The translations under genes and the position numbers were made by a program. A model generated the notes under the pieces. It searched no databases and had not been told where the DNA came from. It saw only the letters and a list, made by a program, of their open reading frames with translations. A stretch of 64,000 nt of DNA, from positions 327,842 through 391,841 of the forward strand of contig CAVWZG010000004.1 in assembly GCA_963759415.1 (NCBI GenBank). Reading direction: 5' to 3'. Each line of letters opens with the position of its first letter. Within the stretch, counting starts at the first letter, position 1. This document shows positions 23,997 to 55,172 of this stretch, in pieces. Origin of the DNA: an uncultured Verrucomicrobiae bacterium. Lineage in GTDB: Bacteria > Verrucomicrobiota > Verrucomicrobiia > Limisphaerales > Palsa-1400.

Positions 23997-24464
23997 ATGA
24001 TTTGGCGCGTCATTTTGTTTTGGCTGGTGGGCGCAATGCTCGCCTTGGCTGATTTGCCGCGTCATTCTGCCTGCGATTCCTTCGTGGGCTTCCGGAGCGC
24101 TGTTCCGGTGGACGGGGCCATTCCAACGGCCGCGTTGCCGGACGTGAGCTTGGGTTATGCCTACGATTTTGCGGGCCGACTGATGTCAGCCACAAACAAC
24201 TCGCTGATTTGGCCTGATGTGATGGACTACGGATACGACCAAAATAATTCCGGCAGGTCGGCTCCGGCACGGGTGCGGCGGTTGACGAGCGAAAGAAAAA
24301 AAGAGGATTGCCAGAGGCCACGGCCTTTTGAAACCTTGACCATGCTGGTTTTATGTGGCATCGAAATCCAGCTTCGTTCCGACTGCCTTTTTTGCTGCCG
24401 ACGTGGTCGGGCACTTTGGTCGGAAAGGAGGGGCCAAGGGGCCGAGTCTGACAAAATGAAATGA
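23997..24464 (+). pseudogene. Possible N-terminal fragment of an RHS/YD-repeat protein
   Basis: Signal-like MIWRVILFWLVGAMLALA followed by two YD-repeat-like units (LGYAYDFAGRLMSATNN; MDYGYDQNN). Beyond about 24240 the ORF becomes low-complexity and the DNA turns AT-richer. Confidence 0.3.
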
Positions 24465-24499: not shown

Positions 24500-25573
24500 A
24501 TGGAAACAACGCTCATCATCTTGGGGGCGGGTTGTTCGCTGAATCGGTATCCACTAGCGAAAGATATGCTGGCGCATCTGAAGCAATTTAGTGAGGGCCT
24601 TGGAACGAATGCTTCTCGATTGCGCAAACTCGTTGAGCAAACCGTTGAACTCTTTGATAAACTGCACGCTAAGGGAATAATGGCCCAAACGCTCGATGAT
24701 CTTGCCCGGATTGTCCACAACGGCCAACTGGCCGACAACAACCTCGGCACGAACCACATCAAGAACAACCGCTTGGTCGCAGACGCGAAAGTTGCGGTGG
24801 CGGCACTGTTTCTCTCGAAAGAAGCCGAAGCGATGAAAGACGGACTGACGGGCTATCGAACCCTGATGAATCGTGTCCTTGCCAGCAACTTTGGCACGGA
24901 TTATCGCGTTGCGTTGAAAAACACTCCATATCGCGTCCTAACGTTCAATTATGACAGGCTTTTTGAATTAGCGTTTCGCCAGTGTTTTCCATACGACGGG
25001 ACAGAAGCTTTCTACGGCCCAACAGTCCTGAATTCTGGCCTGTACTACGTTTTGCCGCAAAAAGTTGAGGTTGATTTGAGCCGATTTGCGTTCCTGAAAT
25101 TGCATGGTTCGGTTGGCCTCTACAGCTACGAGGAAGGCAACGGTTGCGACCATCTTCATGAAATCCCAGACCTTGTCCAACCAACGCCAATCACCGATGA
25201 AGAATTCTTCCTGGCCGGCGGCTACGGCCTCCACTCCAATAAACCGAAGCCGACGTTGATTGTGTTTCCTCACGAGAAGGACTTCGTCCGTGATTATCCA
25301 GGCAACCACTTTCCGTTCAGATTCTACATTCCCGAAGTCTGGAAAGCCGCCCGCTATTTCGCCAGCCAAGCAAAAGAAATCTGGATACTCGGCTACTCCT
25401 GCCCTGAACCGGATTTTGCCGCGTGGCATTCGTTGTTCACGGCTGCGACCGACTGTCAACACATCGTGATTCAGAATCCCTCAGCCGCAAAAATGTGCGA
25501 GCGACTGAAAGCGCGGATGCCTAAACACGCGCATCTTTTTAAACCCGTTGCACATTGCTTTGAAGACATCTAA
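24500..25573 (+). CDS. SIR2-like (SIR2_2-type) putative NAD+-consuming effector protein
   Basis: Ordered motif set: LIILGAGCS (aa 5-13), VLTFNYDRLFE (146-156, Asn150), FLKLHGSVG (198-206, His202), IWILGYSCPEPD (294-305). 43% GC in a 60-nt spot count (24601-24660). Confidence 0.7.
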   Translation: METTLIILGAGCSLNRYPLAKDMLAHLKQFSEGLGTNASRLRKLVEQTVELFDKLHAKGIMAQTLDDLARIVHNGQLADNNLGTNHIKNNRLVADAKVAVAALFLSKEAEAMKDGLTGYRTLMNRVLASNFGTDYRVALKNTPYRVLTFNYDRLFELAFRQCFPYDGTEAFYGPTVLNSGLYYVLPQKVEVDLSRFAFLKLHGSVGLYSYEEGNGCDHLHEIPDLVQPTPITDEEFFLAGGYGLHSNKPKPTLIVFPHEKDFVRDYPGNHFPFRFYIPEVWKAARYFASQAKEIWILGYSCPEPDFAAWHSLFTAATDCQHIVIQNPSAAKMCERLKARMPKHAHLFKPVAHCFEDI

Positions 25574-25592
25574 GATTTGAAATAATCAAACC

Positions 25593-28500
25593 ATGCCCTT
25601 CCAAGCCTACCTGCCCGTCGGATTCGCCCACAGCCACGAGAGCAGGATGTTCGAGCAATTGACAAGGGTGTTGGCGGCTGGCTTCAACTCCGACAAGAAG
25701 TCGGTATATCTCATAGGCAATGCTATGTTCGACGACAAGGAACTGGACGCGGTGCTGCTTAAAGGCGACGCCCTCTTTGTTATCGACATGAAGGATTATG
25801 GGGGGCTTATCCATTTCTCGGAGACCACCGAATGGTTCGCCGATGAAGTCGAGGTTAGAGGAGGCGCTCAGGGCAATCCCTACCGCCAAATCCGCAACAA
25901 CAAGTTCGCCCTCCTCAATTTCCTCAAACGCAAAGGCCCCCGAATCCTTCCACCGCCTGAAGTCTCCCAATATTGGCACATCTGCGGCGTTGTGCTTTTT
26001 GGGCAAGACATCCATCTTGACGAAAAGATGCCGCAGAGCATCAGCGACTGGTTCACCATCTGTGATTTCCGGTCACTGTTGAAAGCTATCTCCCCATTCC
26101 GCACGCGCGGACGCTCGCTACCAGATGCAGACCTCGCGAGGATGGTCGGGTGCCTTGGTCTCAACGAACGCCATCTCTATACAGGCGCGGCAGCACCCGC
26201 ACCTGTCAAGGCCCTGGCCGTGCAGGCACCAGCGCAGGCAGCGCGGTTGCAGGTGCTCTATTACAACCAGTCCCACTTCCGCAACGCGTTGCTGGCCCTC
26301 CGCCAGTCCGGCGGGCGCAAGACGGCCGCCGCCACGCGGTTGCTCATTCTCATCCAACAAACGGGCGAAGGCATTGATTCCTTCGCCACCCTGCCTGCCT
26401 CGCCGGATGCCCGCATTGAAAACGCGCTCATCTACGTGCTGAACGAGGAAGCGCGATTCGTAGCCATCAAAAGCAACTCGACGGTTCACCTGTGCTTCTG
26501 TGGAACTCCGTCAGAGGTGGAAACTTGGCTACAAGTGAATGCGGGTTTAACATTGGCTGTTGACGCAGAAACACTCCGCATCGACCCCACTGTTGTGACG
26601 ACGCAAGCTACCCAAACAGTCCTCGCTCCGACTCGGATGACTGAGGACAATCAGAATTTCCTCATTCGTGTGAAGGGACTCGACTTGGAAAGTCTCGTTT
26701 CATCCTCGCTTGTTAGACGTCACCTGCTCGGCCTCAACGAAAATTCCAGCGACGAACTGATACAAGAGGTTCTTGGTGCCGTATCCGACGAAGACGTTCG
26801 TCTCTTTCTCCGCGATGTCATTTCGTCAGCTAAAGCTGGTGACATCACGGGAGCAGAAACGCGGATACGACTGCGCAAGAGCGAGGCTTGCCCCGTGATT
26901 GATGCCCCAGGGCTGACGCATCAGGCCATCAGTTCTAACGCGAATCCCGACCAAGTGACGAACCTGAGCGATACCGATCCCAAAGAGTTAGAGAGGTTGT
27001 TCGATCAAGATTTTGAAAAATGGATGCTCCATCTCCACAAAGATCAAGAGAACCTTGCGAAAGCCGACTTTGATAAGCCTGTTGTGCTCACAGGTGTCTC
27101 CGGTAGTGGAAAAACGTGTGTTTTGGTTCACCGCGCTCGCTATCTTGCGCGCAAATATCCTGGCGAGCGCATTGCGATTTTAACGCTCAACCGTTCATTG
27201 GCTGGTTTGCTGCGGAACCTCGTCAACCGCCTTTGTCTCGACGGCGAGGCCAAGAATATTCATGTGATGGCATTCTATGACTACTTCAGCCAGTTGCTAC
27301 ATGACTTAGGACCGGGCGAGTATCTTAATCAGCTTTCCGAGCAAGCGCCCGAGTCCTCCGTGACGCAGGATGTCATTGATGCGGTAAACGTCCGGAGATT
27401 GGCCCGCGAATTTGACCCGTTGAGCGGCGAAACCACCGAAGATACTTGGGAAGATTTCTACGCCAGCCAGAATCCTGAGGTAAAAGAATGGTTCGCCGAA
27501 ATCTGCCATTACTTGGAAGAATACCGCATCGACGCCTCTCGGTATCTTCGCGAGGAGTTCACTCTTGCCCGCAGCGCGTTCCCAGTTTCGGACCGCCTGC
27601 GAGGCTATACTTCCTTTGAGCGAAAAGGGCGGAGTATCCCGCTACAGCCGAAACATCGCTCACAAATTCTCAAACTGCTCCTGCTTTTCGAGGAATACAT
27701 GCTGGCAGGAGAAGTGCTCGACGTGCTCGAACTCACCCTTGCCGTCACACCGCTCTGGCGGCAAATCCGCGACCTTCCAGCGGTAAAAAAATTCCGTTGC
27801 GTGCTGGTGGACGAATTCCAGGACTTCTCGACACTCGACCTTCGCCTGCTGATGTGGGTTCCGCCACGCGATGCCCAAAACGCCCTCTTTCTGACCGGGG
27901 ACCCGGTTCAAAAAATACTGGTCAAAAGATTGAGCCTCGGTGATGCGGGGCTGGCCGGAAAGGAAAGGATAGCCGGGAGCGTTGAGGGGCCGGTGGTTGC
28001 AGAAGCCAATGCAATTCATTTCACGATTAAGAAGAATTACAGAAACTGCCGTTTGATTCTCCGTGCGGCCAGCAAACTCGCCAATGTGTATGGCGAACTG
28101 GCGCGGAAATCGGGAGAGGAAATCGAGGTTCTTGACGCAGAACTGGCCATTCACGAAAGGGCCAAGCCGATTGCGCTAAAGACGAACAACCAGGTCAAGA
28201 AGGCGTGGGAAATCGCCCGTCAATGCTTGGCTGAAGGCCAGACGCAAGCATGGACAATTTGCATAGCCAGTGCATCCACACACAGGTACCCCACCGACGC
28301 AATCTTGGCAATGCGGCCACCAGGTTTGCAGGCGGAAGTTCTCAGTGGCGACTACATCAAGAAGCCGGATACGGTTGTGGTCAGCACTCTGAACGACCTC
28401 AAGGGATTTGAGTTCAACTTGGTAGTAGTCATCGGTTGCGATGAAGGCGTTTGCCCGGCGTCTAACGTGGCAGAGGGTGAAGTCTGGAGGGATGCGCTCC

Positions 28501-29012
28501 GTTTTTACGTTTGCATGACGCGTGCGAGGGACCAAGTTTCGATGCTCTATGAAGGTGCGCCCTCACAGTTTCTTCGACAGATGGAGGATTGTATCGTTTG
28601 GACGGAGGAGGCACTCATACAAGACTACCAACCAGCACCGCCGATACCCGTCGTGCCGCCTCCAACACAAAGGATGCGATTTACGAACCTTCTCGCCCGC
28701 AAAGGACTCCGACCGCATGAGTCATGTGTCCAAAACTTGTCGAATGAATCCCTTGCCGTCCTGCGTGTCTTTTACAATACGAAAGTGGACAAGTCGAGGT
28801 TGGTTGACTGCCGTGGCTACAACGCCGACGCGATGAATGAGTTGGAGCGGAAGAAAACAGAGGAATTTCATCGTTGGGTCACGCCAAACAACCTTTCCCG
28901 TCTTCGCCAGTCCTATTTTTCACGATGGCGGCATATCGGACGGCGGGCTTTGCTACAATTGGATCGACAATTTCGCAATCTCGGCATTACCACTTTCCTA
29001 TCGAAGAAATGA
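25593..29012 (+). CDS. NERD-domain nuclease / UvrD-like SF1 helicase fusion protein (1139 aa) with a helix-hairpin-helix-like C-terminal tail
   Basis: NERD-like N-terminus (aa about 15-135: ELDAVLLKGDALFVIDMKDYGG...GNPYRQIRNNKFALLNFL). SF1 motifs: GVSGSGKT (501-508), VLVDEFQD (737-744), LTGDPVQ (767-773), KKNYRNC (813-819), STLNDLKGFEFNLVVV (931-946), VCMTRARD (973-980). The tail ends ...IGRRALLQLDRQFRNLGITTF. It starts 20 nt after the SIR2-like gene. Confidence 0.85.
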   Translation: MPFQAYLPVGFAHSHESRMFEQLTRVLAAGFNSDKKSVYLIGNAMFDDKELDAVLLKGDALFVIDMKDYGGLIHFSETTEWFADEVEVRGGAQGNPYRQIRNNKFALLNFLKRKGPRILPPPEVSQYWHICGVVLFGQDIHLDEKMPQSISDWFTICDFRSLLKAISPFRTRGRSLPDADLARMVGCLGLNERHLYTGAAAPAPVKALAVQAPAQAARLQVLYYNQSHFRNALLALRQSGGRKTAAATRLLILIQQTGEGIDSFATLPASPDARIENALIYVLNEEARFVAIKSNSTVHLCFCGTPSEVETWLQVNAGLTLAVDAETLRIDPTVVTTQATQTVLAPTRMTEDNQNFLIRVKGLDLESLVSSSLVRRHLLGLNENSSDELIQEVLGAVSDEDVRLFLRDVISSAKAGDITGAETRIRLRKSEACPVIDAPGLTHQAISSNANPDQVTNLSDTDPKELERLFDQDFEKWMLHLHKDQENLAKADFDKPVVLTGVSGSGKTCVLVHRARYLARKYPGERIAILTLNRSLAGLLRNLVNRLCLDGEAKNIHVMAFYDYFSQLLHDLGPGEYLNQLSEQAPESSVTQDVIDAVNVRRLAREFDPLSGETTEDTWEDFYASQNPEVKEWFAEICHYLEEYRIDASRYLREEFTLARSAFPVSDRLRGYTSFERKGRSIPLQPKHRSQILKLLLLFEEYMLAGEVLDVLELTLAVTPLWRQIRDLPAVKKFRCVLVDEFQDFSTLDLRLLMWVPPRDAQNALFLTGDPVQKILVKRLSLGDAGLAGKERIAGSVEGPVVAEANAIHFTIKKNYRNCRLILRAASKLANVYGELARKSGEEIEVLDAELAIHERAKPIALKTNNQVKKAWEIARQCLAEGQTQAWTICIASASTHRYPTDAILAMRPPGLQAEVLSGDYIKKPDTVVVSTLNDLKGFEFNLVVVIGCDEGVCPASNVAEGEVWRDALRFYVCMTRARDQVSMLYEGAPSQFLRQMEDCIVWTEEALIQDYQPAPPIPVVPPPTQRMRFTNLLARKGLRPHESCVQNLSNESLAVLRVFYNTKVDKSRLVDCRGYNADAMNELERKKTEEFHRWVTPNNLSRLRQSYFSRWRHIGRRALLQLDRQFRNLGITTFLSKK

Positions 29013-29415
29013 GTTTCCATGAGTCGGCCAAGCCTTGAAATATTTTGCCTGAATTGAAACGGCCAACTTTGTTTTGCGCTTCTGCCCCCGTTTTTCATTT
29101 CCAAATCGGAGTGCAAGTGTCCTCACTTCTTACACTCAAGTCAGAAAGGCGTGCCATAGTTTTGGCGAGTTGACGGTCAAAGCGTTCCATGCTCTTGCAC
29201 GATTGACGGAAAAAGCGTCTCGGCCAAACAAATGGTGAATGAGTTCTGTTGCATTCCCATCCAATGATGGTAATATGTAGTGGCGTGGCGCTCACGCGCC
29301 TGTGTTCTTTGACATTTTGCGAACCTCAAAACCGCCAAGGCGAAAGAGCAGGAAAGCCGGTCGCGGACAGCTTACGCGTCATCCTTCAGCCTTTGGCCTC
29401 GGTTCCCGGCGAATT

Positions 29416-29462
29416 GACTGAATGTGAGTGAATTTGACCGGATACGACTGGATATGACTGGG
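29416..29462. repeat. Array of about 4.6 degenerate 10-bp tandem repeats (GACTGAATGT GAGTGAATTT GACCGGATAC GACTGGATAT GACTGGG)
   Basis: Read directly from the sequence. The 10-bp phasing places the units on one face of the helix. It lies in the non-coding gap between the helicase gene and tRNA-Arg. Confidence 0.6.
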
Positions 29463-29506
29463 AAAAAATAAAGAACATGTTGCGCGTCCAAAAATGGCAA
29501 ATTTTG

Positions 29507-29538
29507 CCGGTCAAGGCCAGTCACACCGGTCAAGGCCA
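29507..29538. repeat. Two perfect 13-bp direct repeats CCGGTCAAGGCCA separated by 6 bp
   Basis: 29507-29519 and 29526-29538, about 65 nt from the 3' end of tRNA-Arg. Confidence 0.7.
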
Positions 29539-29602
29539 TGAAAAACCAAGGGGTCCTGGAATTATGACGCTTTTTTGGGTTTGACGAAGGCGTATTCGTT
29601 GG

Positions 29603-29678
29603 TGGTACCCCCGTCCAGAATTGAACTGGAATCCACCATTTAGGAAACGGTTGCTCTATCCATTTGAGCTACGGGGGC
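29603..29678 (-). tRNA. tRNA-Arg (anticodon CCU), CCA encoded
   Basis: The minus strand reads GCCCCCG TA GCTC AAATGGATA GAGC A ACCGT TTCCTAA ATGGT GGAT TCCAG TTCAATT CTGGA CGGGGGT A CCA. It folds by hand into a 76-nt cloverleaf with anticodon loop TT-CCT-AA. Confidence 0.85.
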
Positions 29679-47027: not shown

Positions 47028-48882
47028 TTGAAGGCTTGGTTATTTATGGCTGAAAGCAAAAAACACGTTTACGACGAAAGCAAAATCAAGACGCTTTCCT
47101 CGCTCGAACATATCCGCCTGCGCACCGGCATGTACATCGGCCGCATCGGCGACGGCTCCCATTACGAAGACGGCTGCTACATCCTGCTCAAGGAGGTCAT
47201 CGATAATGCGATCGACGAATTTATCATGGGCTACGGCAAGGAGGTGCGCATCGACATCGAGGGCACGGCGGTGAGCGTGCGCGATTTCGGACGCGGCATC
47301 CCGCTGGGCAAAGTGGTCGATTGCGTCTCCAAGATCAACACCGGGGCCAAATATAACGACGACGTCTTCCAATTCAGCGTCGGCCTCAACGGCGTCGGCA
47401 CCAAGGCGGTCAACGCGCTCTCGAAGGAGTTTTTGGTGCGCAGCCATCGCGGGGGCGAATTTGTCGAGGCCGCGTTTAAGACGGGGCAGTTGAAGAACGA
47501 AAAGAACGGCAAGGACGCCGCCGAACCGGACGGCACGTTCATCCGGTTTGTGCCGGATCCGGAGATATTCAAGGCGAGCGCCTTCCTGCCCGGAATTCGT
47601 GGAGAAGCGGCTGCGGCATTACAGCTATCTGAACACCGGGCTGAAACTCATTTACAACGGGCAGACTTTTGTATCGCGCAACGGCCTGCTCGACCTCGTC
47701 ATGGAGGATTTGCAGGCCGACCACGCCGAGCCGATTTATCCGCCGCTGCACTATTCGGGCAAGACGCTGGAATTCTGCTTTACGCACAGCAACAGCCGCT
47801 ACGGCGAGACGTTCTTTTCCTTCGTCAACGGCCAGTACACGGCCGACGGCGGCACGCATCTGAGCGCGTTTCGCGAAGGATTGCTCAAGGCGGTGAACGA
47901 GTATTGCCAAGGGCAAATTCGAGGGGGACGACGTGCGCGAATGCATGATCGGCGCGGTGGCCATTCGGATCAAAGACCCGGTCTTCGAGTCGCAAACCAA
48001 GAACAAACTGGGCAACACGGAAATCCGCTCCGAGCTGGTCAACACCGTACGCGAGGAGTTGCTGCATTTCTTCAACCGCAACAAGCGAGGTGGCCGAAAA
48101 GATCATGGCCAAGGTCCAGGACACCCAGCAGTTGCGCAAGGAATTGCAGGAGGTCAAGAAGCTGGCGCGCGAGCGGGCCAAGGCCGTGACCATCCGCATC
48201 CCGCAGTTGCGGGACTGCAAAGTTCATTTTGACAAGCCGAAAGGCAAAGGCCGGGGAACCGATGGTCTTCCTGACGGAGGGCCAGTCGGCGGCGGGGCCG
48301 ATCATGAGCAGCCGCGACGTCAATATGCAGGCCGTTTTTGTCCTCAAGGGCAAGCCCCTCAACGTCTGGGACCTCAAGCGGGACATCGTCTATCGAAACG
48401 ACGAGATGTACAACCTCATGCGCAGCCTGGACATCGAGGACAACATCGATAACCTGCGCTATGAAAAGGTCGTCCTGGCCACGGACGCGGACGTTGATGG
48501 ATTGCACATCCGCAATTTACTGATCACGTATTTTTTCCGATTCTTCGATCATCTGGTGCATGACGGGCATTTGCACGTGTTGGAGACGCCGTTGTTTCGC
48601 GCGCGCAACAAGGAGGAGACCGTTTATTGTTACAGCGAGGCGGAGCGGGACGCGGCGGCGGCAAGATTGGGGAAGAATTGCGAGATCACGCGCTTCAAGG
48701 GCCTGGGCGAAATTTCGCCGCACGAATTCAAGCAATTCATCGGCCCGCAGATGCGTTTGAGCCAGGTCGAATACGCGCCCAAGCCGGAGACGGCGGGCAT
48801 CCTGACCTTCTACATGGGCAAGAACACGCCGGAGCGGAAGGATTACATCATGGAGAATCTGGTGGTGCCGGTGGAGGAATGA
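47028..48882 (+). CDS. parE: Type IIA topoisomerase subunit B (topoisomerase IV ParE-like), broken by 4 frameshifts in this sequence
   Basis: GHKL ATPase N-terminus ([40 protein letters not shown]; [16 protein letters not shown]), transducer ([24 protein letters not shown]), [13 protein letters not shown], Toprim ([11 protein letters not shown]; [12 protein letters not shown]) and the tail. These are spread over ORFs 47028-47948, 47548-48189, 47933-48232, 48090-48452 and 48229-48882 (frames 0,1,2,0,1). Confidence 0.8.
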
Positions 48883-48891
48883 GAAACTTGC

Positions 48892-50076
48892 ATGGAAAAA
48901 ATGCTGGGAGAAATCAAGCGACTTTTGAACGACACGCAGATGCTGCAGTTTTATGAAAAGCAACTGATGCAGGCGACAGGGGAGCATTTTAATGTTTTTG
49001 AAATTCTCCGCATCAGGTCTCGTGAAGTTACGACGCACTCCCCAATGCTGGCAGAATTGCTGGATCCGAAAGGGCGACATGGAATGGGTCACCTCTTCCT
49101 TGATATCTTCACCAAACTGCCCTTCGCTAAGAAGGTTCCATTGGGGTTGGAAGTGGACTCGGCCACACGGGTTAAGCAGGAATATCCGGTCGGGCCAAAA
49201 TGTGAAGACAGCGGGGGGAGAATTGACATCCTCATCACAGACAAAAACAACACGGAAGTTGTGATCGAGAACAAAATATATGCGATCGACCAGGACAAAC
49301 AAATCACCGGCTACCTCAAAGCACGCCCTCAGGCCAAGGTGCTTTACCTCACTTTAGACAGGCATAAACCAATCGAAAAGGTCCCTCCGGAGGACACAGA
49401 GCGATTTGCCTGCATTTCCTACAAAACCGACGTCATCCAGTGGTTGGAAGCCTGCCGCAAAGAAGCGGCGCACGCGCCACTCGTCCGCGAAACTATCACC
49501 CAATACATCAACCTTATCAAAGTTCTCACCGGTCAGAACATAAATTCGCGTATGAACGAACAAATCACCAAGTCCATTCTTCATGACAAAGACTCTCTCG
49601 AAGCCTTCTTCACACTCTTGGGGAGCAAAGAGCACGTCATCAACGAGCTGCTGAAGAAGTTGGAGGCGCAGTGCAAAGAAATCGGCGCGGAATTCAAGCT
49701 GCAACTGGATTTCGATCCCGACGTTAGCGCCGCTCATTGTGGCTTTGCCTTCTCCGACGATGAGATGAAACAACGTAATCTTGAAATTCGCTTCCAGTTT
49801 GAACAAAACAACTTTCGCAGCTTAAACTTTGGAATCGCCCGCAAGGTCGAAGAAGCAGAAAAGAAAGCTACGCGCACACCCATTACGGATGGTTGCGACA
49901 GAATCTTTGGGAAGTGCACCTATGGCTCATGGTGGCCAGCCGAGAAGCGATGGCAGGGGAGAGAAGATTGGTGGACCGATGGTACTTTCCAGGACATCTT
50001 TACAGGTGTATTCGAAAAGGAACTACGAGAGAAGGTCGCGCAATTGGCTAAAATCTTACTCCAGACAAAAGTTTAG
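48892..50076 (+). CDS. PD-(D/E)XK nuclease superfamily protein (PDDEXK_9-like)
   Basis: THSPMLAELLDPKGRHGMGHLFLDIF, then GGRIDILITDKNNTEVVIENKIYAIDQDKQITGY (D...E-x-K core). 47% GC in a spot count (49201-49260). It starts 9 nt after the parE stop. Confidence 0.6.
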   Translation: MEKMLGEIKRLLNDTQMLQFYEKQLMQATGEHFNVFEILRIRSREVTTHSPMLAELLDPKGRHGMGHLFLDIFTKLPFAKKVPLGLEVDSATRVKQEYPVGPKCEDSGGRIDILITDKNNTEVVIENKIYAIDQDKQITGYLKARPQAKVLYLTLDRHKPIEKVPPEDTERFACISYKTDVIQWLEACRKEAAHAPLVRETITQYINLIKVLTGQNINSRMNEQITKSILHDKDSLEAFFTLLGSKEHVINELLKKLEAQCKEIGAEFKLQLDFDPDVSAAHCGFAFSDDEMKQRNLEIRFQFEQNNFRSLNFGIARKVEEAEKKATRTPITDGCDRIFGKCTYGSWWPAEKRWQGREDWWTDGTFQDIFTGVFEKELREKVAQLAKILLQTKV

Positions 50077-50955: not shown

Positions 50956-52342
50956 CACTGGTGTCCAGCTATAAGTCGTTGAACTCAAAGGACTTCTGAA
51001 AAGCGAACTGGCCGCCAGACAACAGGTTTTCATTCGTTTTCGTTGCAAGTATCTCTGTTGCAGCAGCTTGCTCGAAAATATTGACACTGCAAATTTGCAA
51101 AATTTCGTTCAAGGTTCTGTTGATCCCGAGTTGCTTCTTGACTATCGCCACCATCAGATACGCACAGATGGCGCACCAGATTTGGCAGCGCACCGCGTTC
51201 TCGGAGCGGCCATAAAAGGCGCGCAGTCGCAAATGTTGTTTGATCCATTTGAAAAACAGTTCGACCCGCCATCGTTGCTTGTAGAGTTGGGCGACCATCT
51301 GGGCTGAAAGCGAAAAGTTGTTCGTGAGCAGAACTAACATGACTTTGTTTTCCGCATCGAAAAAGCGAATTTTTCGCATCGGCTCGGGAAACGATGTGGC
51401 CGACCAATTGCTTTTTAACCGCACGGTTTGATCGCACTTGAAGCCGGCAGACTGATCGACTGTTCTTCGGTCCAGGATTTGAAAGCTCACCGGTTCCTTG
51501 CAACGCACCACAAAAAAAGCGCCGCCCTTGTGTAAACGGTACAGGCGGACAAAATCCATATAACCGCGGTCCATCACGTAGTACGCTCCGAGATAGACGG
51601 GAATGTGATCGATCATGGTGAGGTCGGCCACGTGGGCGCCAGTCACGACCGCCCACGCGGGCAAATTTCCCTCTAAAGAGAGCATTAAATGAAGTTTCAG
51701 GGCGGCTTGTTTGGTTCTGGCGTAGTAGCCCCAGGGGAACAAATTCAGCGCCAGCGAGATGATTGAGGAATCCAGCGCAAAGACCAGGTGGGGCAAGTCC
51801 AGATCCAAGGAGTCGGGCCGGTAGAGACGGCTGGCCCGACGCATGAGCGTTTGGGCCATGCTCTGGAAGAGTCGCCAATCCCGGTGCTTGTTGGCGTAGG
51901 CCAGATTGGTCCGGGTGATGCGGCCTCGGAATCCCAAATGGTAAAGCAATTTGGGTTTTGAATTCAGACAGGCCACAATGTCGCGCAGGCTTTCGCGATA
52001 GGTCAATTGCCCAAAACACATCGCCAGGAAATGGTCGTATTGCGTGAGGCCGCGCGCAGGCTTGGCGTTGGGAAATTTTTTACACGCGCGGGAAAACTCC
52101 GCAGCATACAGATTGCCGGCGATTTGAGAGAAAAGAGTCGGAGGTGGTTGCATCCACCATTATAGGCGGCAGAACCGGGGGCAAATCAAAATTTGTCAAG
52201 GCATGTTTTTGACAGGCATGTTTTTGATTTTTGAGCGATTTTTTGACGTTGAAGCTGATGTCGATAACAACACGGGCCTTCACAAAGCCCTGAATAATAA
52301 GGGCTTTGATGAGGCCATTCCTCAGGTAGCTGGACACCAGTG
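50956..52342 (-). mobile_element. IS4-family insertion sequence, copy 1 (1387 bp), flanked by the 10-bp direct repeat CGCTGCGCCG
   Basis: Terminal inverted repeats CACTGGTGTCCAGCTA at both ends. Target duplication at 50946-50955 and 52343-52352. It differs from copy 2 by a 15-bp tandem duplication (52200-52214/52215-52229) and one synonymous change in codon 3. Confidence 0.85.
50969..52153 (-). CDS. IS4-family DDE transposase
   Basis: 394 aa. DUF4372-like N-terminus (YDHFLAMCFGQLTYRESLRDIVACL), DDE regions (VFALDSSII; YVMDRGYMDF) and the Y-(2)-R-(3)-E-(6)-K signature in YKQRWRVELFFKWIK. Confidence 0.9.
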   Translation of the reverse strand: MQPPPTLFSQIAGNLYAAEFSRACKKFPNAKPARGLTQYDHFLAMCFGQLTYRESLRDIVACLNSKPKLLYHLGFRGRITRTNLAYANKHRDWRLFQSMAQTLMRRASRLYRPDSLDLDLPHLVFALDSSIISLALNLFPWGYYARTKQAALKLHLMLSLEGNLPAWAVVTGAHVADLTMIDHIPVYLGAYYVMDRGYMDFVRLYRLHKGGAFFVVRCKEPVSFQILDRRTVDQSAGFKCDQTVRLKSNWSATSFPEPMRKIRFFDAENKVMLVLLTNNFSLSAQMVAQLYKQRWRVELFFKWIKQHLRLRAFYGRSENAVRCQIWCAICAYLMVAIVKKQLGINRTLNEILQICSVNIFEQAAATEILATKTNENLLSGGQFAFQKSFEFNDL

Positions 52343-52831: not shown

Positions 52832-53770
52832 ATGAAAGAGAATGGGAACGGCGGGGATGGGCGAATTATTAACGCCATGCTGCCTGGCCAAAAACGTTCC
52901 ATTCACTTGTTTCGATTCATGGGGATCGATGTCTTCCTGCATTGGTCGTGGTTCGTGGTGGCGATTATTCAAATCCAGTGGCGCGCCGGACTTTACTCCT
53001 CCTACTTGTGGTGCGCGTTGGAATACCTGGCGCTGTTCGCCATCGTGCTGATGCACGAGTTCGGCCATTCGCTGGCCTGCCGCAGCGTGGGCGGGCGGGC
53101 GGATCAGATCGTGCTGTGGCCGTTGGGCGGCGTGGCCTACGTGGACCCGCCGCCGCGACCTGGAGCGACGCTCTGGAGCCTGGCCGCCGGACCGCTGGTC
53201 AATGCCCTGCTCTTCCCGGTTTTTTCCGTTTTCCGAATGGTGACTCTCTCGATGCACTTGGATGGCACCATGCCAAATCTCTACGCATTCGTGTTAGCGT
53301 TATGGTGGATTAACCTGATCCTGTTGCTGTTCAACCTCCTGCCGATCTATCCGCTGGACGGCGGGCAGATTCTGCGCTCGTTGCTCTGGTTTCTGGTCGG
53401 ACGCGCCCGCAGCTTGATGATCGCCACCATACTTGGATTGATCGCGGTGGGGTTGCTGCTGCTGTTCGCGATAAGAACTCCGTGGCTCGGACTGATTGGC
53501 GTGTTCGCCCTGTTTCAGTGCTGGAGCGGCTTGCAGCAGGCGCGGTTGCTGGCGCGCCTCGAGGCCGCCCCGCGCCACGCCGGCCTGGCTTGTCCGTCTT
53601 GCCATCATGCGCCGCCGGCGGGCGACTTTTGGGTTTGTGGGCGCTGCCGCCAGCCGTTTGACATGTTCGCGACGCAGGGGACTTGCCCCAAATGCGGGGT
53701 CATGTTCGATGGCGCGCGCTGTTTGGAGTGCGGGCAGATGCACCCGATACAGGCGTTTTTCCAGTCTTAA
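52832..53770 (+). CDS. M50 (site-2 protease) family metalloprotease with a C-terminal double zinc ribbon
   Basis: VLMHEFGHSLACR (HExxH), FNLLPIYPLDGGQIL (NxxPxxxLDG), multi-TM. The tail carries four CxxC pairs (CPSCHH, CGRC, CPKCG, CLECG). Confidence 0.7.
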   Translation: MKENGNGGDGRIINAMLPGQKRSIHLFRFMGIDVFLHWSWFVVAIIQIQWRAGLYSSYLWCALEYLALFAIVLMHEFGHSLACRSVGGRADQIVLWPLGGVAYVDPPPRPGATLWSLAAGPLVNALLFPVFSVFRMVTLSMHLDGTMPNLYAFVLALWWINLILLLFNLLPIYPLDGGQILRSLLWFLVGRARSLMIATILGLIAVGLLLLFAIRTPWLGLIGVFALFQCWSGLQQARLLARLEAAPRHAGLACPSCHHAPPAGDFWVCGRCRQPFDMFATQGTCPKCGVMFDGARCLECGQMHPIQAFFQS

Positions 53771-53800: not shown

Positions 53801-55172
53801 CACTGGTGTCCAGCTACCTGAGGAATGGCCTCATCAAAGCCCTTATTATTCAGGGCTTTGTGAAGGCCCGTGTTGTTATCGACATCAGCTTCAACGTCAA
53901 AAAATCGCTCAAAAATCAAAAACATGCCTTGACAAATTTTGATTTGCCCCCGGTTCTGCCGCCTATAATGGTGGATGCAACCGCCTCCGACTCTTTTCTC
54001 TCAAATCGCCGGCAATCTGTATGCTGCGGAGTTTTCCCGCGCGTGTAAAAAATTTCCCAACGCCAAGCCTGCGCGCGGCCTCACGCAATACGACCATTTC
54101 CTGGCGATGTGTTTTGGGCAATTGACCTATCGCGAAAGCCTGCGCGACATTGTGGCCTGTCTGAATTCAAAACCCAAATTGCTTTACCATTTGGGATTCC
54201 GAGGCCGCATCACCCGGACCAATCTGGCCTACGCCAACAAGCACCGGGATTGGCGACTCTTCCAGAGCATGGCCCAAACGCTCATGCGTCGGGCCAGCCG
54301 TCTCTACCGGCCCGACTCCTTGGATCTGGACTTGCCCCACCTGGTCTTTGCGCTGGATTCCTCAATCATCTCGCTGGCGCTGAATTTGTTCCCCTGGGGC
54401 TACTACGCCAGAACCAAACAAGCCGCCCTGAAACTTCATTTAATGCTCTCTTTAGAGGGAAATTTGCCCGCGTGGGCGGTCGTGACTGGCGCCCACGTGG
54501 CCGACCTCACCATGATCGATCACATTCCCGTCTATCTCGGAGCGTACTACGTGATGGACCGCGGTTATATGGATTTTGTCCGCCTGTACCGTTTACACAA
54601 GGGCGGCGCTTTTTTTGTGGTGCGTTGCAAGGAACCGGTGAGCTTTCAAATCCTGGACCGAAGAACAGTCGATCAGTCTGCCGGCTTCAAGTGCGATCAA
54701 ACCGTGCGGTTAAAAAGCAATTGGTCGGCCACATCGTTTCCCGAGCCGATGCGAAAAATTCGCTTTTTCGATGCGGAAAACAAAGTCATGTTAGTTCTGC
54801 TCACGAACAACTTTTCGCTTTCAGCCCAGATGGTCGCCCAACTCTACAAGCAACGATGGCGGGTCGAACTGTTTTTCAAATGGATCAAACAACATTTGCG
54901 ACTGCGCGCCTTTTATGGCCGCTCCGAGAACGCGGTGCGCTGCCAAATCTGGTGCGCCATCTGTGCGTATCTGATGGTGGCGATAGTCAAGAAGCAACTC
55001 GGGATCAACAGAACCTTGAACGAAATTTTGCAAATTTGCAGTGTCAATATTTTCGAGCAAGCTGCTGCAACAGAGATACTTGCAACGAAAACGAATGAAA
55101 ACCTGTTGTCTGGCGGCCAGTTCGCTTTTCAGAAGTCCTTTGAGTTCAACGACTTATAGCTGGACACCAGTG
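53801..55172 (+). mobile_element. IS4-family insertion sequence, copy 2 (1372 bp), flanked by the 10-bp direct repeat CGCGGCAGCG
   Basis: Same terminal repeats (CACTGGTGTCCAGCTA) as copy 1. Target duplication at 53791-53800 and 55173-55182. Confidence 0.85.
53975..55159 (+). CDS. IS4-family DDE transposase
   Basis: The protein is identical to that of 50969-52153 in the ORF track. Confidence 0.9.
   Translation: MQPPPTLFSQIAGNLYAAEFSRACKKFPNAKPARGLTQYDHFLAMCFGQLTYRESLRDIVACLNSKPKLLYHLGFRGRITRTNLAYANKHRDWRLFQSMAQTLMRRASRLYRPDSLDLDLPHLVFALDSSIISLALNLFPWGYYARTKQAALKLHLMLSLEGNLPAWAVVTGAHVADLTMIDHIPVYLGAYYVMDRGYMDFVRLYRLHKGGAFFVVRCKEPVSFQILDRRTVDQSAGFKCDQTVRLKSNWSATSFPEPMRKIRFFDAENKVMLVLLTNNFSLSAQMVAQLYKQRWRVELFFKWIKQHLRLRAFYGRSENAVRCQIWCAICAYLMVAIVKKQLGINRTLNEILQICSVNIFEQAAATEILATKTNENLLSGGQFAFQKSFEFNDL

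What the first reader, a model, noticed from the sequence alone, without database searches (positions are those of the whole stretch)
24500..29012. SIR2-like gene + NERD-nuclease/UvrD-helicase gene: candidate undescribed two-gene anti-phage defence system
Seen in the sequence:
- Gene A (357 aa) carries the ordered SIR2_2-type motif set: LIILGAGCS, VLTFNYDRLFE with Asn150, FLKLHGSVG with His202, and IWILGYSCPEPD.
- Gene B starts 20 nt downstream on the same strand. Its 1139 aa combine three parts.
  - A NERD-like nuclease module: ELDAVLLKGDALFVIDMKDYGG...NPYRQIRNNKFAL.
  - About 350 aa that I cannot assign.
  - A complete SF1/UvrD motif set: GVSGSGKT, VLVDEFQD, LTGDPVQ, KKNYRNC, STLNDLKGFEFNLVVV, VCMTRARD.
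- Gene B ends with a tail resembling a helix-hairpin-helix (LQLDRQFRNLGITTF).
- The pair sits in DNA that is clearly AT-richer than its surroundings. My 60-nt spot counts give 43% at 24601 and 47% at 26521, against 62-67% at 24121 and 22501.
- It is bounded by non-coding DNA on both sides and abuts the 3' end of a tRNA gene.

Established knowledge:
- SIR2-type NADases are the effectors of Thoeris ThsA, DSR1/DSR2, SIR2-HerA and SIR2-associated short pAgo systems.
- UvrD-type helicases and nuclease-helicase fusions occur in Gabija (GajB) and in Nhi/Hna-like proteins.

Inference: I do not recognise SIR2 + NERD-UvrD as a named system. A plausible model is that the nuclease/helicase subunit senses foreign DNA ends or replication intermediates and licenses NAD+ depletion by the SIR2 subunit (abortive infection).
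Basis: partly seen in the sequence, partly recalled or inferred. Interest (0 to 1): 0.88.

Follow-up and report, generated by a model that had tools for sequence, protein, structure and literature searches.

The report
Two adjacent, independent phage-defence genes
The SIR2-like gene and the NERD-nuclease/UvrD-helicase gene are both real and both look like anti-phage genes, but in every other genome examined each occurs without the other, so they are most likely two separate defence cassettes that landed side by side, not a new two-gene system.

Summary
The sequence observations hold. Gene A (24500-25573, 357 aa) is a divergent SIR2. It keeps the GAGCS, N150/D152 and H202 motifs, and its predicted fold best matches the SIR2 subunit of SIR2-HerA. 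Gene B (25593-29012, 1139 aa) has a NERD nuclease domain, an unassigned region of about 260 aa, a complete UvrD/PcrA-type SF1 helicase and a variable tail. The pair lies in a low-GC islet next to tRNA-Arg(CCT).

Of 127 fetched loci, 33 carry an A relative, 18 carry a B relative and none carries both.
- A relatives at 71-81% identity are solitary, or sit beside an HNH gene or a DnaJ/Sel1 gene.
- B relatives at 69-84% identity sit alone in defence contexts. A 46% relative lies inside a type I R-M operon.
- In one genome, B alone is flanked by direct repeats of the ubiD 3' end.
- Homologous PLD-SNF2 + methylase pairs are followed by an A relative in one genome and a B relative in another.

Best reading: a mini defence islet of two independently mobile single-gene modules, a SIR2 NADase candidate and an Nhi/Hna-like nuclease-helicase. 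Both are uncharacterised members of known kinds. Lineage-specific cooperation is not excluded but is unlikely. Interest is modest.

The parts
24315..24401 (-). Degenerate relic of the 3' end of a ubiD gene (UbiD residues about 462-490 of 509, with an in-frame stop). The window has no ubiD gene. Probably a scar or att-like remnant carried along with the cassette.
   Evidence: tblastn of UbiD-C fragments and of full UbiD from L107. blastn gives 69% identity over 108 nt to L107 5541-5647.
24500..25573 (+). Gene A: 357-aa divergent SIR2_2-type protein and predicted NAD+-consuming effector. Carries GAGCS (9-13), N150/D152 and H202.
25574..25592 (.). 19-nt A-B spacer with no terminator-like site, so A and B are probably co-transcribed here.
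25593..26168 (+). Gene B residues 1-192: NERD / PD-(D/E)xK nuclease module (E50, D52, D65-x-K67). It is the same N-terminal module as the PADLOC candidate PDC-M16A.
   Evidence: Pfam NERD E 4e-9. PDC-M16A E 1.6e-50 over profile positions 1-190 of 917. D52 and K67 are invariant.
26226..27008 (+). Gene B residues about 212-472: conserved alpha/beta + helical region with no assignable family. It is also the N-terminus of NERD-less 'middle + UvrD' proteins of 770-865 aa.
   Evidence: No hit in Pfam, PADLOC or a PDB profile search. Alignment A3 with L028-L031 and L123. Representative search.
27015..28607 (+). Gene B residues about 475-1005: SF1A UvrD/PcrA/Rep-type helicase core with all motifs invariant (K507, D740/E741, Q773, R817, K937-F941, R977/R979).
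28608..29012 (+). Gene B C-terminal tail (about residues 1006-1139): helical, poorly conserved, no family hit. The HhH reading is not supported.
29013..29602 (.). Non-coding spacer, about 48-53% GC, between gene B and the tRNA. No integrase gene and no att-like direct repeat of the tRNA 3' end were found.
29603..29678 (-). tRNA-Arg (anticodon CCT). Its 3' end faces the islet.

Best explanation
The region from about 24.3 to 29.6 kb is a small, horizontally acquired defence islet. It lies between housekeeping genes and tRNA-Arg(CCT) and holds two independently mobile, independently functioning single-gene modules that are co-transcribed here only because they landed in tandem.

Gene A is a stand-alone, divergent SIR2_2-type enzyme with an intact NAD+-binding and catalytic set. 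It most likely depletes NAD+ (or ADP-ribosylates a target) when triggered, giving abortive infection. This step is inferred.

Gene B is a single-polypeptide nuclease-helicase. A UvrD-type SF1A motor loads on or tracks along foreign DNA or replication intermediates, and the N-terminal NERD PD-(D/E)xK nuclease cuts it. This would resemble Nhi and Hna, which respond to phage SSB and replication complexes. The unassigned middle region is the likely recognition or regulatory part. These steps are also inferred.

Shown here: the domain content, conservation of the catalytic residues, the foreign composition, the defence-island contexts of relatives, and the lack of co-occurrence. Inferred: the enzymatic activities, the triggers and the defence phenotype.
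For: 1. No co-occurrence. Among 127 fetched loci, 33 have an A relative, 18 have a B relative and none has both.

2. Closest A relatives.
- P0007 (72%) and P0009 (71%) are solitary among housekeeping genes.
- P0006 (76%) lies beside a convergent HNH gene.
- P0002 (81%) is preceded by a DnaJ/Sel1 gene and has no B start in the 167 nt downstream.

3. Closest B relatives.
- P0122 (84%), P0125 (77%), P0124 (76%) and P0126 (75%) have no SIR2 upstream.
- P0127 (74%) follows a PLD-SNF2 + MmeI-like methylase pair.
- P0130 (69%) follows a DEAD/MZB giant helicase and a NERD-helicase gene.
- P0143 (46%) lies inside hsdM-hsdS-[B]-GmrSD-hsdR, next to a Lamassu gene.

4. In L107, gene B is alone between copies 3 and 4 of a 153-nt direct repeat of the ubiD 3' end. 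That makes it a single-gene cassette.

5. Homologous PLD-SNF2 and methylase genes (33% and 32% identity, E 7e-148 and 8e-68) are followed by an A relative in L004 and by a B relative in L121. A and B therefore fill the same slot in different genomes.

6. The A family is much larger than the B family: 242 hits against about 28 full-length B hits. Roughly 17 of the 150 listed 50%-identity representatives match across both the NERD and middle regions.

7. Catalytic residues are invariant in both families.

8. Folds agree. Gene A's best matches are all SIR2 folds, led by the SIR2 of SIR2-HerA and followed by CobB, ThsA and DSR2. Gene B's helicase core best matches PcrA, UvrD and Rep, with HelD, AdnB, AddA and GajB lower in the list.

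9. Composition is foreign: GC3 0.58-0.62 against 0.69-0.76 in the flanks.

10. Nhi and Hna are described as single-protein helicase/nuclease defences triggered by phage SSB or replication complexes (PMC10732053). NERD is listed for Nhi-like and Mokosh (PMC10952713).
Against: - In this genome the genes are 19 nt apart on one strand with no terminator between them. They are almost certainly one transcript.
- Small sensor-less SIR2 proteins in characterised systems (SIR2-HerA, SPARSA, Thoeris) depend on a partner. A 357-aa SIR2 acting alone would therefore be unusual (established knowledge).
- The sample of close relatives is limited to about 4 independent A contexts and 7 B contexts.
- No experiment shows that either gene protects against phage.
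Confidence: 0.68

Rival explanations
1. A and B form one two-gene abortive-infection system. The NERD-UvrD subunit senses foreign DNA ends or replication intermediates and activates NAD+ depletion by the SIR2 subunit. The system would be either a rare lineage-specific assembly or an ancient one.
For: - Same strand, 19-nt spacer and no intervening terminator.
- Both genes share the low-GC islet.
- Gene A's nearest structural match is the SIR2 of SIR2-HerA, which is activated by an ATPase/helicase partner.
- The A family appears with varied neighbours, as expected for a pluggable effector: Sel1/TPR-S + DEDDh, ADP-ribosylglycohydrolase, HipA-like PDC-M66A, HNH.
Against: - Zero co-occurrence in 33 A loci and 18 B loci.
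- Orthologues at 69-84% identity of each gene exist without the other.
- B alone is bounded by att-like repeats in L107.
- No PADLOC model links the two genes.
- A specific A:B interface would have had to arise very recently.
Confidence: 0.12
2. Neither gene is a defence gene. A is a sirtuin-like protein deacylase or regulatory enzyme, and B is a DNA repair/recombination or RNA-polymerase-recycling helicase-nuclease. Both would be ordinary accessory genes of Verrucomicrobiota.
For: - Some A relatives sit alone among housekeeping genes.
- The B helicase core resembles UvrD, PcrA, Rep and HelD.
- CobB deacetylases appear among the fold matches for A.
Against: - The distribution is patchy and the composition is foreign.
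- Placement is repeatedly inside or beside R-M operons, GmrSD, Lamassu, PLD-SNF2/methylase, TIR, AAA_13 and PDC-M66.
- The A model's best fold matches, by a small margin, are defence SIR2s.
- The B N-terminus equals the defence candidate PDC-M16A.
- No NCBIfam housekeeping equivalog reaches its cutoff.
Confidence: 0.12
3. The gene A family works with a Sel1/TPR-sensor partner, seen next to A in about 7 loci. The copy in this window has lost that partner and is an orphaned or decaying effector, so only gene B is functional here.
For: - Sel1-repeat / TPR-S genes are adjacent to A relatives in L013, L015, L018-L021 and L119.
- No Sel1 gene lies near gene A in the window.
Against: - Gene A is intact with all catalytic residues.
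- The Sel1 association is confined mainly to a distant branch at about 30% identity.
- Relatives at 71-76% identity lack it.
Confidence: 0.08

Closest known systems
SIR2 subunit of the SIR2-HerA (Nezha) anti-phage system (PDB 8w9l, 8wld)
   Same: It has a similar size (342-360 aa) and the same SIR2 Rossmann fold with a helical insertion. It is the best Foldseek match (E 3e-6, TM about 0.5). The catalytic Asn/His arrangement is conserved.
   Different: Only 11-14% identity, and no sequence-level PDB hit. No HerA gene is adjacent in the window or in any of the 33 A loci. Gene A relatives are often solitary.
Nhi / Nhi-like and Hna single-protein nuclease-helicase defences
   Same: One polypeptide combines a nuclease with an SF1 helicase. 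NERD is the nuclease listed for Nhi-like (PMC10952713). These are stand-alone genes in defence islands, with a proposed action on phage replication intermediates (PMC10732053).
   Different: No PADLOC family named Nhi or Hna was among the matches shown, and not every match was listed. The gene B helicase is UvrD/PcrA-type (SF1A). Gene B also has an extra conserved middle region of about 260 aa and a C-terminal tail. Sequence-level membership could not be tested directly.
PADLOC candidate PDC-M16A
   Same: Gene B residues 1-191 match the first 190 profile positions at E 1.6e-50. The exhaustive search shows many proteins of 880-960 aa that share only this N-terminal module.
   Different: The remaining roughly 725 profile positions do not match. 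Gene B has a different middle region and a UvrD-type helicase. What the partner of M16A is could not be established, and no paper in the library mentions PDC-M16.
Gabija GajB and the PADLOC-labelled type III CRISPR accessory C3a187 ('NERD+UvrD')
   Same: Both share a UvrD-like helicase core with gene B: GajB models up to E 1e-22 and C3a187 E 5e-18. GajB appears among the fold matches (8sm3_B).
   Different: There is no GajA (OLD/TOPRIM) gene and no CRISPR-Cas locus nearby. The matches cover helicase motifs only. The gene B NERD module did not hit the C3a187 NERD part.

Membership tests
SIR2_2 / defence-type SIR2 NADases (gene A) | Gly-rich NAD-binding loop (GAGxS) at the first beta-strand | tested here: met
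   LIILGAGCS at residues 5-13. G9, A10, G11, C12 and S13 are at least 90% conserved in 34 homologues.
SIR2_2 / defence-type SIR2 NADases (gene A) | Catalytic Asn (xNYD) and His (KLHGS) | tested here: met
   N150, and H202 with K200-G203, are invariant in alignment A1; D152 is at least 90% conserved.
SIR2_2 / defence-type SIR2 NADases (gene A) | Pfam PF13289 score at or above the gathering threshold | tested here: not met
   19.3 bits against 24.5, E 1.3e-3. Several homologues do carry a precomputed PF13289 hit, and 33 of 34 hit PADLOC SIR2 models.
SIR2_2 / defence-type SIR2 NADases (gene A) | SIR2 three-dimensional fold | tested here: met
   AF2 model with pLDDT 91.4. All top Foldseek PDB hits are SIR2 proteins (SIR2-HerA, CobB, ThsA, DSR2), E down to 3e-6, TM about 0.5.
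SIR2_2 / defence-type SIR2 NADases (gene A) | NAD+ hydrolase activity | not testable with these tools
   Needs a biochemical assay.
SIR2-HerA (Nezha) | Adjacent HerA-type hexameric ATPase/helicase partner | tested here: not met
   The neighbour is an SF1 UvrD-type helicase, not HerA. No HerA hit in PADLOC.
Thoeris / DSR / SPARSA | SLOG domain + TIR partner (ThsA/ThsB), a large C-terminal sensor (DSR1/2), or a short pAgo partner | tested here: not met
   Gene A is 357 aa with a SIR2 core only. No TIR or pAgo ORF lies in 22-32 kb. Aga_SIR2 hits are weak, E 0.012.
Gabija | GajA (ATPase + TOPRIM/OLD nuclease) next to the GajB helicase | tested here: not met
   No such gene in the islet. GajB models match only helicase motifs.
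PADLOC PDC-M16 | Full-length match to the PDC-M16A profile (about 900 positions) | tested here: not met
   Only profile positions 1-190 of 917 match.
Nhi-like single-gene nuclease-helicase | One protein with a NERD/PD-(D/E)xK nuclease plus an SF1 helicase, functioning alone | tested here: inconclusive
   The architecture is met and the stand-alone occurrence is met. No sequence-level hit to a named Nhi model was seen, and whether the library holds one could not be verified.
Proposed 'SIR2 + NERD-UvrD' two-gene system | Conserved adjacency of the two genes across genomes | tested here: not met
   0 of 33 A loci and 0 of 18 B loci carry both genes.

The most novel reading that the evidence does not exclude
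In this one verrucomicrobial lineage, a free-standing SIR2 effector cassette has recently been captured upstream of a free-standing NERD-UvrD nuclease-helicase. The two now work as a nascent two-gene system, with helicase sensing coupled to NAD+ depletion. This would be a snapshot of how multi-gene defence systems are assembled from single-gene modules.
Probability: 0.1. Interest if true: 0.65.

Novelty: new member of a known kind. Interest (0 to 1): 0.3.

Why it matters
If the pair were a true system, it would add a new sensor-effector pairing (SF1 nuclease-helicase to SIR2 NADase) to bacterial immunity. The evidence instead shows the common situation in which defence genes cluster without being functionally coupled. 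That is a useful caution against calling systems from adjacency in a single genome.

The real value lies in two uncharacterised families that are almost confined to Verrucomicrobiota and other uncultured soil and freshwater bacteria:
- a compact 350-370-aa SIR2 that often stands alone;
- a NERD-X-UvrD nuclease-helicase that repeatedly sits inside R-M operons and carries a conserved region of unknown fold.

The repeated ubiD 3'-end copies that bracket such cassettes point to a site-specific accretion hotspot that could be mined for further defence genes.

Tried and rejected
- Sequence search of gene A against the PDB, alone and as a 34-sequence profile, gave nothing significant. Only structure prediction plus Foldseek identified the fold.
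- The gene B middle region (212-472) and tail gave no hit in Pfam at E<=1, in PADLOC, or in a PDB profile search. A RelE/ParE-like impression from the secondary-structure order could not be tested and is dropped.
- The HhH tail has no support.
- A search for att-like direct repeats of the tRNA-Arg 3' end across 23.4-29.8 kb found only short chance repeats, and no integrase gene.
- Viral contigs hold no gene A relative and only two distant NERD-less gene B relatives.
- Plasmid collection: only helicase-core matches for gene B at 24-25% identity, and none for gene A.
- Literature: no paper mentions PDC-M16. No paper combines SIR2, NERD and UvrD as a system.
Relatives indicate Verrucomicrobiota.
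- The last homologue search, with the NERD module alone, returned only fragments.
- The convergent 244-246-aa gene downstream of A in L114 and L125 was considered as a partner. It is a signal-peptide protein absent from the window and from the other loci, so it reflects shared ancestry, not a system.
Full report
**1. The observation**

They are separated by 19 nt. All quoted motifs occur at the stated residues, and the four 60-nt GC spot counts reproduce to the digit: 0.433, 0.467, 0.617 and 0.667.

At gene scale the composition shift is smaller but real.
- Gene A is 0.51 GC, gene B 0.54 and the islet 0.53, against 0.60 in 10-kb flanks.
- GC3 is 0.58-0.62 against 0.69-0.76 in neighbouring genes.

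The flanks are housekeeping genes. To the left lie an M32 carboxypeptidase and a DUF5009 membrane protein. To the right, beyond the tRNA, lie TetR, HlyD and ABC efflux genes. A tRNA-Arg(CCT) lies at 29603-29678 on the minus strand. Its 3' end faces the islet but is 590 nt from the gene B stop. No integrase gene and no att-like repeat of the tRNA end were found.

**2. Gene A**

Pfam gives only a sub-threshold SIR2_2 hit (19.3 bits against a gathering score of 24.5). Sequence searches of the PDB find nothing. The family evidence is nevertheless clear.
- 242 homologues were found, almost all from Verrucomicrobiota metagenome bins.
- In a 34-member alignment spanning 34-80% identity, N150 and K200-L201-H202-G203 are invariant. 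D152, the GAGCS loop and the G298-Y-S motif are at least 90% conserved or invariant.
- 33 of 34 members hit PADLOC's generic SIR2 profiles.
- An AlphaFold2 model built on that alignment is confident (pLDDT 91.4, pTM 0.91).
- Its best PDB matches are all SIR2 folds. First is the SIR2 subunit of the SIR2-HerA anti-phage complex (8w9l, 8wld; E 3e-6 to 5e-6; TM about 0.5). CobB, ThsA and DSR2 follow.

Gene A is therefore a compact, divergent SIR2 with an intact active site. NADase activity is inferred, not shown.

**3. Gene B**

Pfam finds NERD (37-136), UvrD-helicase/AAA_19 (483-777) and UvrD_C (923-986). Across 25 family members, the PD-(D/E)xK residues D52 and K67 and every SF1 motif are invariant: K507, D740/E741, Q773, R817, K937-F941 and R977/R979.

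The structure model has pLDDT 74. Its helicase core best matches PcrA, UvrD and Rep. HelD, AdnB, AddA and GajB appear further down the list.

In PADLOC, residues 1-191 match the first 190 positions of the candidate PDC-M16A (E 1.6e-50). The rest of that 917-position profile does not match. The helicase part matches GajB profiles and C3a187 ('NERD+UvrD').

Residues about 212-472 and the C-terminal tail hit nothing in Pfam, PADLOC or a PDB profile search. The HhH suggestion is unsupported.

The middle region is nonetheless conserved. It also forms the N-terminus of NERD-less 'middle + UvrD' proteins of 770-865 aa. An exhaustive search of 1.84 billion representatives found three groups:
- roughly 17 of the 150 listed 50%-identity representatives match across both the NERD and middle regions;
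- many proteins of 880-960 aa share only the NERD module (PDC-M16A-like);
- others share only the middle region.

Gene B is thus a modular fusion.

**4. Test of the two-gene system**

I fetched 26 genome loci with A relatives, 80 metagenome loci seeded on B, 2 viral loci and 19 loci through exact-protein look-ups. Across all 127 loci, 33 carry an A relative, 18 carry a B relative (E<=1e-20) and none carries both. 25 of the A loci have a complete A 3' end and at least 300 nt downstream.

The closest relatives are the most telling.
- Gene A relatives:
  - P0007 (72%) and P0009 (71%) are solitary among housekeeping genes.
  - P0006 (76%) lies next to a convergent HNH gene.
  - P0002 (81%) is preceded by a DnaJ/Sel1 gene, and no B start appears downstream.
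- Gene B relatives:
  - P0122 (84%), P0125 (77%), P0124 (76%) and P0126 (75%) have no SIR2 upstream.
  - P0127 (74%) follows a PLD-SNF2 helicase and an MmeI-like methylase.
  - P0130 (69%) follows a 2070-aa DEAD/MZB protein and another NERD-helicase, with methylase and Vsr genes downstream.
  - P0143 (46%) is embedded in hsdM-hsdS-[B]-GmrSD-hsdR, with a Lamassu gene nearby.

Two further observations show that each gene moves on its own.
- In L107, a 153-nt segment of the ubiD 3' end occurs four times as a direct repeat. Gene B is the only gene between copies 3 and 4.
- Homologous PLD-SNF2 and methylase genes (E 7e-148 and 8e-68) are followed by an A relative in L004 and by a B relative in L121. 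The two genes are alternative occupants of the same slot.

**5. Defence context**

Both families are consistently found in defence neighbourhoods.
- A relatives lie beside HsdR (L009), PLD-SNF2/methylase and the HipA-like candidate PDC-M66A (L004), HNH (L116), and Sel1/TPR-S + DEDDh exonuclease genes (L013, L015, L018-L021).
- NERD-less B relatives lie beside a TIR + MmeI-like methylase pair, HsdM, and an AAA_13 ATPase.

Together with the foreign composition, this supports a defence role for each gene. Neither has been tested experimentally.

**6. Most likely mechanism**

Gene B most likely acts as a self-contained nuclease-helicase. The UvrD-type motor engages foreign DNA or replication intermediates and the NERD nuclease degrades them. 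The middle region provides recognition or autoinhibition. This is how Nhi and Hna are described, both being triggered through phage SSB or replication complexes (PMC10732053). NERD is the nuclease listed for Nhi-like and Mokosh (PMC10952713).

Gene A most likely consumes NAD+ upon an unknown trigger. It may act alone or with interchangeable partners.

Co-transcription in this genome is probable: the spacer is 19 nt and holds no terminator. That is expected for tandem cassettes and does not by itself imply coupling. I put about 0.68 on independent modules, about 0.12 on true functional coupling, and the rest on non-defence or orphaned-effector readings.

**7. Comparison with known systems and novelty**

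No named system covers the pair. Gene A fails the partner requirements of SIR2-HerA, Thoeris, DSR and SPARSA. Gene B fails those of Gabija and matches only the N-terminal fifth of PDC-M16A. NERD + UvrD fusions are already catalogued (C3a187, Nhi-like).

The finding is therefore best filed as new, uncharacterised members of known kinds of defence gene, not as a new system. Interest is modest (0.3). The sequence reading was accurate, but the claim that carried the high score does not survive the synteny test.

**8. Limits**

- Close-relative contexts are few: about 4 independent contexts for A and 7 for B.
- No complex prediction was possible.
- All functional statements are inferences from homology and context.

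Noticed in passing
L107:5551-12097; L116:1158-1385; L118:~200-290; window 24315-24401 (-): Direct repeats of the ubiD 3' end bracket defence cassettes in related genomes. L107 has four 153-nt copies, with gene B alone between copies 3 and 4. In L116 a copy precedes a gene A relative. REP-like palindromes and a RAYT-like ORF lie beside them. The window has no ubiD gene, yet carries a degenerate ubiD 3' relic about 100 nt upstream of gene A. This looks like a site-specific accretion hotspot whose cassettes can relocate.
   Followed up: partly
L004:2780-11910 and L121:1043-11366: Homologous PLD-SNF2 helicase + Eco57I/MmeI-like methylase pairs are followed by a gene A relative (L004, then the HipA-like PDC-M66A) or by a gene B relative (L121). 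This is a variable third slot downstream of a conserved two-gene core.
   Followed up: partly
L013, L015, L018-L021 (e.g. L019:11087-13562); L119:379-1041: In a distant branch of the gene A family (about 30% identity), a Sel1/TPR-S repeat gene lies next to the SIR2 gene. A DEDDh (RNase_T, PDC-S48-like) exonuclease gene is also adjacent in most of these loci. An 81% relative is preceded by a DnaJ/Sel1 gene. This may be a real SIR2 + Sel1-sensor (+ exonuclease) system, distinct from the finding.
   Followed up: partly
L003:2295-4608: A 50%-identical gene A relative is immediately followed by an ADP-ribosylglycohydrolase with a cREC_REC-like N-terminus. That hints at ADP-ribosylation chemistry rather than NAD+ depletion for some family members.
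   Followed up: no
window 50969-52153 (-) and 53975-55159 (+): Two 100% identical 394-aa DDE_Tnp_1/DUF4372 transposase ORFs in inverted orientation bracket a Peptidase_M50 gene (52832-53770). The arrangement is composite-transposon-like.
   Followed up: partly
window 47028-50076: An HATPase_c ORF (47028-47948) and a PDDEXK_4 nuclease ORF (48892-50076) lie just upstream of the IS copies. This may be a second small accessory or defence patch.
   Followed up: no
L028:3517-10373; L029; L031; L123: NERD-less 'middle + UvrD' proteins (770-865 aa) share the unassigned 212-472 region of gene B. They sit beside a TIR_2 + MmeI-like methylase pair, HsdM, or an AAA_13 ATPase. One is on an IMG/VR viral contig.
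   Followed up: partly
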